Origin: Aplysia californica | Lineage: Eukaryota | Direction of reading: 5' to 3' | Length of the DNA: 64,000 nt | Assembly (NCBI RefSeq): GCF_000002075.1 | Contig: NW_004797504.1 | Span: 409,937 to 473,936 of the forward strand | Part shown: piece after piece, positions 52-61,287 of the stretch | Position numbering within the stretch: position 1 is the first letter of the stretch | How the letters are laid out: each line of letters starts with the position of its first letter | The notes under the pieces: generated by a model | What the model was told of the DNA's origin: nothing | Seen by the model: the letters and a program-made list of their open reading frames with translations, nothing else | Databases searched by the model: none | Program-made: the position numbers and the translations under genes

Positions 52-2266
52 GTCGGATTTTGCTCTGGGCATCTTGTGGATAACAGACACTCAGTGGTAA
101 AGAGAGCAGGAAGGGTCAAGGAAGAATACCAAGGTCAAGGAATTATAATCAAGTTGACTGACGCCATTGAGGGAGAAGTTGCAAAAGTAGGAACTGTCAA
201 GTGGGAGTTGATGTGCTGTGTGAAAAAGAATGCCGAGCGATTTAACAAAAGCTCCGCGGGCCAGAAAGGATTTCTACAAATTGTGCATATGGTAAGAACA
301 CCGTGCTTTCCATTTTAAATCTACTTTTAAGTTTAGTTTTAGTCGAGGTTTTACGGCGCTTGCAACGGCATAAGGTCATATTATGAGCGCCTATGGGTGG
401 ATGTCAACTGAGGAAATCCTTACAGGGAATCAGACTTACTCTGCTCACCTCTCTAGCTTCAACAGCACAAAGTCTGCTTCGACTATCAAGGCACCCCCGA
501 AATAGCGGGTCACAAGAGTGTGACAAGCATACAAAAGTACAAGAAAAATGACGATAGTAAGGATTTAAAGAAAAGGCAGCAGTTCCCTGACACAGTTCAG
601 ACACATGAGCATGACATTGATGAATCAGCCCACTTACAATTACAATTCTACTGTTCATAAGAACTCAAGATATTAAAGTCACCCCCTTTGGGAATGGCCT
701 AAAGACACTTCGGTCAGTAGCACAGCCCCGGGGGTATAAATCTACTTTGAGGAGAATGATGGCTTCCTGACATAGTGCGGCACTATTTTTTGTTTTTTTT
801 GTTTTACGCGTTTGTATCTCTCTAAGGGTTTGTTGGACTTTGGGTTTTTCAAAGTTTTAAGATGTTTGGGTGAGAAGGGTATTTTATATCCAGCCTAGAA
901 TACACTTTCAATAACTGAAAAGCCATGACATTAATTCCCAGTGCTTATTCTTAAATCCAAGTACAAAAGGTGGGAAGTAGATTCCTAAACGGTGTCAGAG
1001 GGAGCAAGGACTTACTGCAAGCAGCCATTCGAAACCAGACCTCACAAGTCGCCTATCTCACCACGCCCCCATATTCACTAGAAGTGTACCTCCGCCAATC
1101 CCCATTCCCCCCTTTTTTGGAACTACATTAATATGCATGTGCGTTTTTGCGGTGTACCTTTCCCTCCCTCCCATTCCCGATGTGTGTCACACATTGTCGG
1201 AATTCCGCCTCCTAAATGGGGTAAATTGGGTCAATAGTGGAGGAAAAGACATACATTAAGAGATACATTTCGTTGTATTATTTAGAGTAACAATTGTGCC
1301 GTGTTGAGGGCGAATTATACCAACGCTTTCCCCGCACCCCCACCCCTCTCCTTTCCGTNNNNNNNNNNNNNNNNNNNNNNNNNNNNNNNNNNNNNNNNNN
1401 NNNNNNNNNNNNNNNNNNNNNNNNNNNNNNNNNNNNNNNNNNNNNNNNNNNNNNNNNNNNNNNNNNNNNNNNNNNNNNNNNNNNNNNNNNNNNNNNNNNN
1501 NNNNNNNNNNNNNNNNNAATAATAATATTATGATACTGCATACACACACACAGGTCGAGTATTCTTATCTAGTTTTGACATTTTTAACTAAAAGGATTAT
1601 TGTTATTACTTTTCTTTGTCTCGTCAGTCGCTTTCATAATTAAGATGCACGTTTTACTAATCATTTACAATGTTGTTCCTATATTTACCCTATAAGCAAA
1701 CGTACCAGATGCTTCTACTGAGGAACAATCTTCCAAAAGTGGACCCTTCAGTTTTCCGAAACGTCCACGAAATGACGCACGAGGACATGGAGCAATTTTT
1801 CCAAAATGAGGTCACGTGGAACAGACTGATACGTCAAGGCCGGATGTGCGTTCATTACGTGCCTTTGCGCAGGGTCAAGGAGAACATACGACATGTCATC
1901 AACCACAGAACGAAAGCCTTCATGTCTTTTGGTGCTTCATGTGTCAAGGACGCTAGTGTTCAGGCTGAGAGAGATGTTAGAAACGCTACCATGTTCTCTC
2001 TTACAACCTGGTTTCCAGTGTCTTTCGGCCATGCTTTTAACTCTGATTTTCATGGGTCTGATTACACTGATTTGGAATCCCATTTGCAGATGCATATGAA
2101 TCTATTGAGTAACGCAGAGTGCGAAAAGGTAAGCTGGGTTATCAACATGGACTTTGCAATTGATTCAGATGTCACCGAAAGGTTAAGGAAAAGTTTGGAT
2201 GTGTATGGAATACCTTTAACGCAGAACCCAAATGTGTTAGAGCAAATAGTGTTTCAGCGAAATTGA
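52..2266 (+). CDS. NAT16/histidine N-acetyltransferase-like GNAT, paralog g1 (5'-partial; first coding exon lies upstream of the window)
   Basis: Exon 52-291 (tttag|GTCGGA...ATG|gtaag; VGFCSGHLVDNRHSVVKRAGRVKEEYQGQGII, acetyl-CoA motif A-like). Exon 1697-2266 (tataag|CAAACG; ...HYVPLRRVKENIRHVINHRTKAFMSFG...FNSDFHGSDYTDLESHLQMH...; TGA 2264-2266). The 240-nt middle exon and phases match the other paralogs. Confidence 0.85.
328..736 (-). mobile_element. ~400-bp non-autonomous retroelement with I/Nimb-like 3' tail (in g1 intron)
   Basis: 12-bp direct repeat taaatctacttt at 316-327 and 737-748. 3' end ...tatgaccttatgccgttgcaagcgccgtaaaacc. A second copy lies at ~50815-51205. Confidence 0.7.
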
Positions 2267-4601
2267 TAACCGTTGATTCCAAAATAATTGTTAATGCATA
2301 CCTCCACAAATACGTACATACCGTGGCCCATGTTAATAAGCATTGTAAGTATCAAGACAATGTTGGAAATGTCTGCCTGATTCTCTGTACACTGATGTCG
2401 CATCGAAGGTGGTAAAACGCAGATTGCTGGCGTTGTTTTGTTTTTGTTCTTGTTTCCTTTTTAAAAAAAATAAGTTTTACTTATTTTATAAACCTGAGGT
2501 AAACAGAAGTCTTCGGTCTACCGTCACTTTAAATAATAAATCTCCCTCTCCTCCTTTTCTTTCCACCCTAAGCCAAAATATGGTCTGTTTTATCTTCATT
2601 TTTCTACAAAGTGTTTGCTGTGAACGCTTGTGGGCTAAGCAATTGTTACTTTTACTCGAGTGTTACATTCAAGTATGTGTTACCTGGAATAATAATACGG
2701 TCATTTACTGCTAAAAATTACTTATTGATCCAACTCAACCCTCCTTTTATAATAAATTCATAAAAACAGAGAAGTACTTACTTCATAACATCTATATTAT
2801 CATAGTAAAAGTATATTATGCTTTTTCACATCACAACAATCACCTTGTGAGGAAAGTTTTACTCACATGCCGTATTGTGTCGATAGTGCCGTAAAACATC
2901 TACCCAATCAAAAAAACAACTTCGCATGCCGTTTGTAACCTTGTACCCTAAAATATTTGATAATCCCGTAATACGGAACTATGCATTGTGTTTTATGCCA
3001 ATGTGAATAAAATATGCTTTCATAAATACGAAACCATCAAGTATCTAGGTTTTTCTGTTTACAAGTTGTATCTCTCTCATCCCAGAAGAACCATGAGAGG
3101 CAGGGTAGAAAGCTTACGTCCTATGATCTACATTGTGTCGTTGGGGCGTGAAAAACACATACATTTAAAAATAGGGTGTCAGGATACCTTACTGAGTGAG
3201 GGTCAAATATTCTTGCGCAAGCACGACGAAATATATTTTTGTTTTGAAATGTCGGATCTCTCTCAAATTTAGATAATCAATTCGGCAAGCTGTTGGGGCT
3301 TGTCTCAAGTGGAGGCAGCCCAGTTTGTCACAATTTCATCAAGTATTTAACACTGATGACAGTCATAATTACATAACTTTAACACTGTAGCTGTAACTGA
3401 ATTTTTTTAGTCTCCCAGTCTCCACCTTCAACTTGGGGGTGTAGAGATAGTCCCTCTAAAATGTCAAATCCGCTTGTGTTGTTCAATATTTCCTTTTTGT
3501 ATGCATATCAAAACAAATTTAAATTACTCTGTAAAATTTCAACAGTGATAATGTTTTGAGTGTCAGTGATAACACAAAAAACGTGTTCACTCTCTTTTCA
3601 GATTAGCGCTAGATAATGAACCCTACGTTGTGAGGTAGTCGCACCGGGTGGGTTGTTAAAAAGGTAGGGGTTTGTTGCGACAACGTTCAGATCATTTACA
3701 TTCTAAAGGATGCATAATTACTGAAAAGACGATGAAACACGCACGTTTTTTAAAAAAACGTGAAAATGTAGATTCGAAAGTAAAACAACCTTTTAGTTGC
3801 AATATCACGTTTGAAAAAAGACTCGACTGTGCGTCTTTATACATGTCCATAATGTGGGTCTTTCGGTTTTTAATGTTGAGGAAATTTGCCCGAGGTTTTT
3901 TTATTTTTGTTTTTTGTTGAACGATGCATCCTTCATGATAAACCATTCATGATTAAAATATTGTATGTTTTGCTCTCAATCCCCAACGTGATGCTAGCAT
4001 TCCGCTGTTTTTTGGGTGGTTGCAGTTCTCGACAGTTAGCTTAGCTTCACGTAATAGAGAACCAAAGCAATGTTCTAATAAGTACTCTGCACGATACATT
4101 ACTGTATTAAAGAACAAACCTACGACCCCAATTTAAACCTACCTCAACTTACTGATTCAATACAAAGGCTACTGGTTCATTTCTTTTCTTTATTTTAATT
4201 TCTTTTTTGTTGGTCTGAATTCCACAGTAAGAATACAAGTTTACACAGCACTCAAAATCACGAACAGTTAACACCCTCAATGTTTCATTCAAGTGTGCAC
4301 ACACAATCTTAGCCCATTGACACCAACACAACACAGCTTTATTAAAGAACACACAGAGAAACGAGGGGGGAAAATGTGTGTGGATGAGAAGCCATTTGGG
4401 GGAGTTGAGGGNNNNNNNNNNNNNNNNNNNNNNNNNNNNNNNNNNNNNNNNNNNNNNNNNNNNNNNNNNNNNNNNNNNNNNNNNNNNNNNNNNNNNNNNN
4501 NNNNNNNNNNNCAGCCTTATTATACGACCGCAAGTTGCTTTGGCTCGGCTTTGAGCCATGCGACCTGAAAACCCCAGGAATACTCAGTCTGTGGGAACTT
4601 A

Positions 4602-61100: not shown

Positions 61101-61287
61101 CTCAAATTCACGAACTGACCACTTCTCCGTCAGCCTCTGCCACAAAGGAGAGAAAGTCTGGGTCTTGAACAAACTCTGAATACTTTGCAGGTAAGTGGTC
61201 CCTGCCCCAGTAAACATCCCCAATTCCATCCACTACGGCGGAGTAATCTGACATACGTGCCGGCCGGATCACCACTTCGGACGTCAT
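58114..61287 (-). CDS. NAT16/HISAT-like GNAT, paralog g5 (330 aa)
   Basis: Exons 61287-61120 (MTSEVVIRPARMSDYSAVVDGIGDVYWGRDHLPAKY...DGEV|gtcagt), 59459-59220 (ttttag|IGFYVGELVDNKQTLHKRAGRIKDEYKGQGIF...VHM|gtaag) and 58698-58114 (ccag|KLYY...TGA). A small deletion shifts only the last few codons. Confidence 0.9.

What the first reader, a model, noticed from the sequence alone, without database searches (positions are those of the whole stretch)
52..61287. Expanded, diversifying array of five NAT16/HISAT-like small-molecule acetyltransferases in an invertebrate
Seen: five paralogs with identical phase-0 exon architecture, split across separate ORFs in the track (g3 exon 1 is absent from it). 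Recalled knowledge: vertebrate NAT16/HISAT acetylates histidine and has G-x-DYLP, a VID..T...EGLRV...RGKG motif A and a C-terminal domain with II.DW.P...NL and ID.FG.D...L..H. Here these correspond to GRDYLP, LVDNRQT...AGRV..Y(K/R/Q)G(Q/K)G, ICVHYVP...ENI and SDF.GSD...LESHL..H. Inference: a lineage-specific expansion for N-acetylation of diverse amines or amino acids (osmolytes, neuroactive amines, dietary toxins). This is the best candidate for an undescribed system in the window.
Basis: partly seen in the sequence, partly recalled or inferred. Interest (0 to 1): 0.7.

Follow-up and report, generated by a model that had tools for sequence, protein, structure and literature searches.

The report
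Sea hare HisAT-like acetyltransferase gene cluster
A sea hare (Aplysia) carries a tandem cluster of eight genes, part of a family of at least 23, that resemble the human histidine-acetylating enzyme but have a changed substrate pocket, so they likely attach acetyl groups to some other amino-acid-like molecule that is still unknown.

Summary
Observation confirmed and extended. The window holds five three-exon, phase-0 paralogs (57-79% identical, dS 0.3-1.1, so not haplotypes). They belong to an eight-gene, ~105 kb array and to at least 23 loci in the genome. Database names identify Aplysia californica; several genes already have RefSeq models. The predicted fold of g5 matches human HisAT/NAT16 (Z 31.6, TM 0.80; next family Z 17). 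g3 and g4 are spliced in public runs. The carboxylate-binding tyrosines and the aromatic sandwich are mostly kept, but E108, E122 and D245 become Y, R and H. I therefore infer N-acetylation of an amino acid with a non-basic side chain; no assay exists. 'Diversifying' is weakly supported: dN/dS is about 0.35 and the pocket is more conserved than average. 'Lineage-specific' is partly right: 20 of 23 Aplysia sequences form one clade, but other gastropods have several copies too. Boldest open reading: these are the enzymes by which sea hares acetylate algal toxins (15%). A real, apparently undescribed expansion of a known enzyme family.

The parts
52..291 (+). g1 coding exon 2 (exon 1 is upstream of the window, G000:C234:408213-408380)
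   Evidence: equals part of P0002
1697..2266 (+). g1 coding exon 3 (Hisat_C domain, stop TGA); protein 325 aa
   Evidence: (PF24066 29.0 bits)
12328..12495 (-). g2 coding exon 1
   Evidence: (P0003)
9401..9640 (-). g2 coding exon 2
8044..8667 (-). g2 coding exon 3; protein 343 aa = P0003
   Evidence: (PF24066 29.8 bits)
36386..36780 (+). upstream non-coding exon spliced to g3 exon 1 in one contig; left end is only where the contig begins
   Evidence: (joint 36780-37810, GT..AG, run X5, 1 contig)
37816..37983 (+). g3 coding exon 1 (donor GTCAGT)
   Evidence: joint seen in X5 and X6
38927..39166 (+). g3 coding exon 2
39699..40286 (+). g3 coding exon 3; protein 331 aa
   Evidence: (PF24066 19.9 bits, under cut-off)
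48116..48283 (+). g4 coding exon 1
49110..49349 (+). g4 coding exon 2
49776..50363 (+). g4 coding exon 3, interrupted in this assembly by a premature stop
50190..50192 (+). premature TAG in g4 (codon 275); polymorphic, other samples read G at 50190
   Evidence: G in X1 and X8, both T and G in X5
61120..61287 (-). g5 coding exon 1 (donor GTCAGT)
   Evidence: P0001
59220..59459 (-). g5 coding exon 2
58114..58698 (-). g5 coding exon 3; protein 330 aa = P0001, the one folded
   Evidence: (PF24066 27.1 bits)

Best explanation
These are tandemly duplicated, spliced genes for HisAT/NAT16-type double-GNAT proteins that likely use acetyl-CoA to N-acetylate a free amino acid or amino-acid conjugate with a neutral, aromatic or acidic side chain rather than histidine. 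Shown: gene structures, splicing of g3 and g4, purifying selection, family assignment by profile and predicted fold. Inferred by mapping on human HisAT: acyl-CoA binds the N-terminal GNAT domain; the acceptor sits between the domains, with its carboxylate held by Tyr26 and Tyr31 (human Tyr74, Tyr79), its side chain between Tyr26 and Tyr190 (human Trp246), and its amine attacking the thioester directly. The acidic rim (human Glu108, Glu122, and by my alignment Asp245) is replaced by Tyr60, Arg74 and His189, which would disfavour basic side chains. The close copies likely share one chemistry and differ in dose, tissue or fine specificity; g4 is a polymorphic pseudogene. A likely role, untested, is bulk phase-II handling of dietary compounds, for example cysteine S-conjugates.
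For: Fold: AlphaFold2 model of g5, pLDDT 93.9; top three hits are human HisAT, Foldseek E 1e-22, TM 0.80; VIA Z 31.3-31.6, rmsd 2.2-2.6 A over 295-301 residues, next family (NMT) Z 17.2. Profile of 98 relatives hits NAT16 at E 5.6e-46, next hit 1.9e-07. Roles of Tyr74, Tyr79, Gly123-Leu124, Thr160, Trp246 from PMC12219266 section 9; Glu122 and Glu108 are the glutamates near the substrate (its peer-review file). Residue table for 9 close paralogs: Tyr74 kept in 8 of 9, Tyr79 in 8 of 9, Asp78 in 9 of 9, W246 to Tyr in 9 of 9, E122 to Arg in 8 of 9 and Met in g4, D245 to His in 9 of 9. Pocket 1.64 distinct residues per site against 2.38 overall, p 0.026. Median dN/dS 0.35 over 36 pairs. Spliced joints for g3 in X5 and X6 and for g4 in X5, none in the probable DNA run X1. 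Human HisAT has low activity on Phe, Tyr and Met and none on histamine.
Against: No activity was measured. In human HisAT E122Q only slowed catalysis a little and E108Q did not reduce it, and the authors call the acidic-rim idea their best guess, so the swap need not abolish histidine use. Arg at the E122 position occurs in 50 of 92 other homologs, so it is an old invertebrate trait, not an adaptation of this cluster. Motif A deviates (human Ala136 is Phe or Ile, Arg131 varies). The tissues of the runs are coded, so a digestive role is not shown.
Confidence: 0.5

Rival explanations
1. They are the enzymes that O-acetylate algal phenols and terpene alcohols (laurinterol, cupalaurenol, halogenated monoterpenols) in the digestive gland, lowering their toxicity; the phenol would stack between Tyr26 and Tyr190.
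For: Reviews report acetates of algal metabolites in Aplysia, thought to form in the animal or its digestive gland and to be less active than the free phenols (passages of PMC4771992; PMC7070258). No enzyme is named in the passages I saw. Aplysia-only clade of 20 with a wide range of pockets in its deeper members. High exon depth in some runs only.
Against: Carboxylate-binding tyrosines are kept and an Arg and a His line the pocket, which suits an anion, not a terpene. The only characterised member found is an N-acyltransferase of amino acids. Freshwater and land snails and limpets also hold several copies. Tissue unknown.
Confidence: 0.15
2. They are true histidine (or basic amino acid) acetyltransferases, multiplied for dosage to make an osmolyte in an intertidal animal.
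For: Full-length HisAT fold; Tyr74, Asp78, Tyr79 and an aromatic at Trp246 kept; E122Q and E108Q are tolerated in human HisAT; conserved pocket across copies fits dosage.
Against: Glu to Arg and Asp to His put positive charge beside the side-chain site. One search for N-acetylhistidine with mollusc and invertebrate gave 1 paper, unrelated by its listing; PMC4496688 passages describe the compound in vertebrates.
Confidence: 0.15
3. They transfer longer acyl chains and make N-acyl amino acids (lipid signals or defensive secretion compounds).
For: Human HisAT accepts myristoyl- and palmitoyl-CoA and has a hydrophobic acyl cavity (PMC12219266 section 10).
Against: The cavity was not measured in the model. 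Human HisAT is fastest with short chains. The bulky Phe or Ile at the Ala136 position gives no clear direction.
Confidence: 0.1
4. They inactivate neuroactive amines (histamine, dopamine, serotonin) or a broad range of amines, each copy with its own substrate.
For: GNAT fold; single pocket changes in g1 (Cys60, Cys111), g2 (Phe26), g4 (Met74) and g5 (His31).
Against: Human HisAT does not act on histamine. Carboxylate site kept. Pocket more conserved than average and dN/dS about 0.35. Arylalkylamine acetyltransferases match only at E 1e-3 over 67 positions.
Confidence: 0.07

Closest known systems
Human HisAT/NAT16 (PDB 9EMD, 9EMO, 9EMP, 9EN3; PMC12219266)
   Same: Double-GNAT fold over the whole length (Z 31.6, rmsd 2.2 A, 295 residues); G-x-D-Y-L-P loop with Tyr74, Asp78, Tyr79; Arg125 and Gly134; hairpin aromatic; chain ends soon after the last strand; Hisat_C domain.
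   Different: 16-17% identity. E108, E122, D245, W246 are Y, R (M in g4), H, Y; G123-L124 are A-G; R161 is a Cys in 10 of 10 close copies with that exon; A136 is F or I. No ~50-residue disordered N-terminus. Eight tandem copies and at least 23 loci instead of the single human gene described.
Gastropod 'histidine N-acetyltransferase-like' proteins (Elysia, Bulinus, Physella, Biomphalaria, Candidula, Haliotis, Patella, Lottia; automatic annotations)
   Same: Same length and motifs, usually R-A-G/A-R-V in place of E-G-L-R-V; several copies per species.
   Different: 25-36% identity; none falls in the 20-member Aplysia clade; the Cys at the R161 position is rare in them (4 of 92). No functional study found.
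N-myristoyltransferases (NMT-type double GNAT)
   Same: Double-GNAT architecture (Z about 17, TM 0.55-0.58).
   Different: Much weaker match than HisAT, rmsd about 4 A; no C-terminal extension after the last strand in g1 and g5; the HisAT active-site loop is present.
Thermoplasma Ta0821 (PDB 3C26)
   Same: HisAT-type double GNAT (profile E 1.9e-07; Z 16.6).
   Different: Archaeal, 12% identity, substrate unknown.

Membership tests
HisAT-type double-GNAT structural group (NAT16 family) | Two GNAT domains in one chain, superimposing on HisAT | tested here: met
   g5 model: Z 31.6, rmsd 2.2 A, 295 aligned, model 1-328; TM 0.80
HisAT-type double-GNAT structural group (NAT16 family) | Hisat_C (PF24066) C-terminal domain | tested here: met
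   Best Pfam hit in 5 of 5 third exons; over the 27-bit cut-off in 3 of 5 (g1, g2, g5); g4 (cut at the stop) 26.5, g3 19.9
HisAT-type double-GNAT structural group (NAT16 family) | Beta-hairpin from the second domain carrying an aromatic residue to the active site | tested here: met
   Two short strands near residues 186-193 in the model; Tyr190 aligns with Trp246. Position in space not inspected
HisAT-type double-GNAT structural group (NAT16 family) | C-terminus ends right after the last strand, unlike NMT | tested here: met
   Last strand 318-325 of 330 in g5; g2 has about 18 further residues
HisAT-type double-GNAT structural group (NAT16 family) | Acyl-CoA motif (Arg131, Gly134, Ala136) in the N-terminal domain | tested here: inconclusive
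   Gly kept in 5 of 5 window genes; Arg131 is Q, R, K, K, K; Ala136 is I or F; weak GNAT Pfam hits, PF00583 over cut-off for whole g5
HisAT-type double-GNAT structural group (NAT16 family) | Beta-bulge oxyanion hole at Gly123-Leu124 | not testable with these tools
Histidine N-acetyltransferase (functional class) | Tyr74 and Tyr79 hydroxyls binding the substrate carboxylate | tested here: met
   Both kept in g1, g3, g4; g2 has Phe at 74, g5 His at 79
Histidine N-acetyltransferase (functional class) | Acidic residues around the side-chain site (Glu108, Glu122; Asp245 by my inference) and Trp246 | tested here: not met
   Y/C, R/M, H and Y in 5 of 5 window genes; only Asp78 kept. The paper's own list is in a supplementary figure that I could not see (legend only)
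Histidine N-acetyltransferase (functional class) | Measured preference for L-histidine with acetyl-CoA | not testable with these tools
   Needs an enzyme assay
Histidine N-acetyltransferase (functional class) | One-to-one orthology with vertebrate NAT16 | tested here: inconclusive
   No identified vertebrate sequence in my trees; many-to-one at best, since the genome holds at least 23 loci in four places of the tree
NMT-type double GNAT | C-terminal extension entering the active site; best structural match to NMT | tested here: not met
   Z 17 against 31 for HisAT; no extension in g5

The most novel reading that the evidence does not exclude
This clade is the missing enzyme system by which sea hares acetylate and so disarm or store the halogenated terpenes, phenols and their cysteine conjugates taken from red algae: a HisAT scaffold turned into a 20-member xenobiotic acetyltransferase family, with a null allele of g4 segregating among animals.
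Probability: 0.15. Interest if true: 0.72.

Novelty: new variant of a known kind. Interest (0 to 1): 0.4.

Why it matters
The HisAT/NAT16 family has one characterised chemistry (histidine, in vertebrates) in the papers I found. Molluscan copies are named 'histidine N-acetyltransferase-like' by automatic transfer, although the pocket has changed charge. An eight-gene array with high transcript depth in some samples gives easy targets for finding a second chemistry of the family. If the dietary reading holds, it would name the enzymes behind the long-reported acetylation of algal metabolites in sea hares, with a natural null allele as a test. If not, it is an ordinary tandem expansion of a metabolic enzyme in a gastropod.

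Tried and rejected
Mis-assembled haplotypes: rejected; dS 0.30-1.07 among the five, while other samples differ from g4 by 0-7 letters per laid piece. g4 stop as an assembly error: rejected; a contig of run X5 also reads T, while X1, X8 and a second X5 contig read G. Positive selection: not seen; 36 of 36 pairs have dN/dS 0.23-0.50 and 17 of 17 windows are under 1; no site-model test was run. Conserved RNA structure in the stretch with few synonymous changes: no support, 1 of 23 predicted pairs has a two-sided change. Catalytic cysteine (Cys112, ping-pong): left as a lead only; passages of PMC8072286 and PMC3413214 say that tested active-site cysteines of GNATs were not catalytic. Expression: no RNA holder listed on record; raw-read runs X21 (0 reads on g4) and X22 (36 partial reads, none on exons of g3) are no test, since the organism was not shown in them; contig depth is a poor measure of level, so I make no tissue claim. 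A canonical E-G-L-R-V ortholog in the genome: not found with P0094 (3 matches of 19 candidates, exon 1 only) or PF24066 (7 of 18); these searches are lower bounds. Word-index protein searches found only 2, 4 and 7 proteins; the HMMER library search supplied the relatives (239 hits, best 150 listed). The careful IQ-TREE run did not finish; the quick tree is quoted. Literature: no paper on this expansion surfaced (gene ids, 0 papers); main texts of open papers only, so supplements and closed journals may hold expression data. Earlier scan notes: nothing. In one search the D245 and W246 columns were off by one; one search has the corrected table.
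Full report
Observation. A six-frame motif scan and the ORF list show five sets of three coding exons. Splice sites give exons of 168 nt, 240 nt and 570-624 nt, both introns phase 0: g1 (+, 52-2266, exon 1 upstream of the window), g2 (-, 12495-8044), g3 (+, 37816-40286), g4 (+, 48116-50363), g5 (-, 61287-58114). g1, g3 and g5 use the less common donor GTCAGT after exon 1; for g3 this joint is seen in runs X5 and X6. 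Database proteins match g5 (P0001), g2 (P0003), exons 2-3 of g1 (P0002) and the first two exons of g4 (P0005, 151 aa); they are named from Aplysia californica, as uncharacterised or histidine N-acetyltransferase. No database protein for g3 appeared in three searches.

g4 has a TAG at codon 275. It would remove the last 57 residues, including the final strand, which in human HisAT is swapped into the catalytic domain (PMC12219266 section 9), so the short form is likely inactive. The stop is polymorphic: X1 and X8 read G at 50190, X5 has one contig with T (depth 394) and one with G (192). The array also runs beyond the window: g6 (exons 1 and 2 found; a 1354-base N run follows where exon 3 would be), g7 and g8, eight genes over about 105 kb of contig C234. 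Genome searches with the three exons gave 23 matches of 25 candidates, 16 of 21 and 16 of 19. Their union is at least 23 loci, leaving out two fragments on small contigs (C3697, C2903).

Real, transcribed paralogs. The five share 57-79% identity, dS is 0.30-1.07 and dN/dS 0.31-0.42; the median over 36 pairs of nine complete close copies is 0.35. Both introns of g4 are skipped in X5 and not in the probable DNA run X1. Both introns of g3 are skipped in X5 and X6, with exon depth in the hundreds against 5-25 in introns. These runs are only guessed to be RNA, but the GT..AG joints show spliced molecules. X9 gave no g3 exon cover. X21 and X22 are no test. Tissues are coded and unknown.

Family. Pfam gives Hisat_C as best hit for all five third exons, three over the cut-off, and weak GNAT hits for four of five second exons. 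A profile of 98 relatives matches human NAT16 along its length at E 5.6e-46. The model of g5 (pLDDT 93.9) matches HisAT crystal structures at TM 0.80 and Z 31.6, against Z 17 for N-myristoyltransferases. So these are HisAT-type double-GNAT proteins. They start at the first strand, with no leader, so they are likely cytosolic (inference).

Pocket. I read the abstract, sections 6 and 10, the first parts of sections 9 and 11, and supplement passages of PMC12219266. Histidine is stacked between Tyr74 and Trp246, its carboxylate is held by Tyr74, Tyr79 and the Gly123 amide, and acidic residues may favour basic side chains. An ungapped alignment and the profile alignment map these to g5 numbering. 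In nine close copies Tyr74 and Tyr79 are each kept in 8, Asp78 in 9; Trp246 is Tyr in 9, Glu122 is Arg in 8 and Met in 1, Glu108 is Tyr in 8, Asp245 is His in 9, Arg161 is Cys in 9. The carboxylate site stays and the rim turns from acidic to basic. I infer an alpha-amino-acid-type acceptor with a non-basic side chain and direct transfer from acetyl-CoA. Against this: E122Q and E108Q had little or no effect in the human enzyme, and Arg at that place is found in 50 of 92 other homologs (hits were chosen by likeness to g5, and at least one of the 92 is an Aplysia paralog).

Diversifying? The 11 pocket positions hold 1.64 different residues on average, against 2.38 for all sites (p 0.026 by resampling), and no window has pN/pS above 1. 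The close copies therefore look like one chemistry with small changes. The deeper Aplysia paralogs differ much more, with W, Y, F, N, D or S at the Trp246 position.

Lineage-specific? In a FastTree of 114 sequences and a quick IQ-TREE of 53 (a chosen subset; the careful search did not finish), 20 Aplysia sequences form one clade without other species (support 0.997; SH-aLRT 99), with an inner clade of 11 holding all eight array genes. Three other Aplysia loci group with other molluscan proteins. I named 30 of the 150 listed hits: Elysia chlorotica, Bulinus, Physella, Haliotis rufescens and Patella each have two or more, some on contigs of the same length, and one Bulinus model is a 654-residue double. 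Multiplying this family is thus common in gastropods. No other sea hare was identified in the sample, so the age of the clade is open.

Biology. Passages of two reviews report acetates of algal phenols and terpenes in Aplysia species, thought to be made in the animal and less active than the parent compounds (PMC4771992; PMC7070258); a third mentions conversion of malyngamide B to an acetate in Stylocheilus (PMC7767343). I saw no enzyme named. This makes a dietary role attractive, but those reactions are O-acetylations and the pocket suits a carboxylate. N-acetylation of cysteine conjugates would fit both diet and pocket; that link is my inference from general knowledge of the mercapturic acid pathway.

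Novelty. The genes are annotated, the family is known and its human member is solved. Searches found no paper on the expansion or on any molluscan member (listings only, unless cited above); supplements of Aplysia transcriptome papers and closed journals were not searched. Verdict: a real and apparently undescribed expansion with a changed pocket, a new variant of a known kind, interest 0.4.

Noticed in passing
window 39876-39935 (g3) and the same codons (about 196-216) in all close copies: About 60 coding bases are nearly identical in ten paralogs even at synonymous sites (0.10 against 0.40 overall, permutation p 0.005). No covariation support for an RNA structure. Gene conversion or a DNA/RNA element are open.
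   Followed up: partly
window 50190: Polymorphic nonsense allele in g4; both alleles are present in spliced-transcript run X5.
   Followed up: yes
Cys112 in g5 numbering (exon 2 of each gene): Cysteine at the human Arg161 position, next to the acceptor site, in 10 of 10 close copies with that exon and 5 of 8 deeper Aplysia copies, but 4 of 92 other homologs.
   Followed up: partly
window 6200-6620, 9912-10352, 13570-14020, 18280-18720, 21872-22314, 26490-26920, 33770-34213, 43000-43444: A repeat of about 440 bases in eight copies, both orientations, 66-88% alike; likely a SINE or MITE that could aid unequal crossing over.
   Followed up: no
window 27446-27853 (-) and 56368-56937 (-): Retroelement remnants: an RNase H piece (PF00075, E 2e-05) and a piece matching PF09004 (E 1.5e-07), which I take for a LINE end from recall.
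   Followed up: partly
L044 (G000:C234:475120-476851): g6 has exons 1 and 2 but no exon 3 was found; an N run at 478019-479372 may hide it.
   Followed up: partly
L047:6889-7128 (g8 exon 2): g8 has Cys in place of the motif A glycine kept in all other close copies.
   Followed up: no
L018 (G000:C2903) and L010/L011 (C474, C3697): C2903 repeats the end of g8 exon 3 letter for letter, and C3697 nearly repeats C474; probable haplotigs or very young copies. No exon 1 or 2 was found in about 9.5 kb upstream of C474 exon 3.
   Followed up: partly
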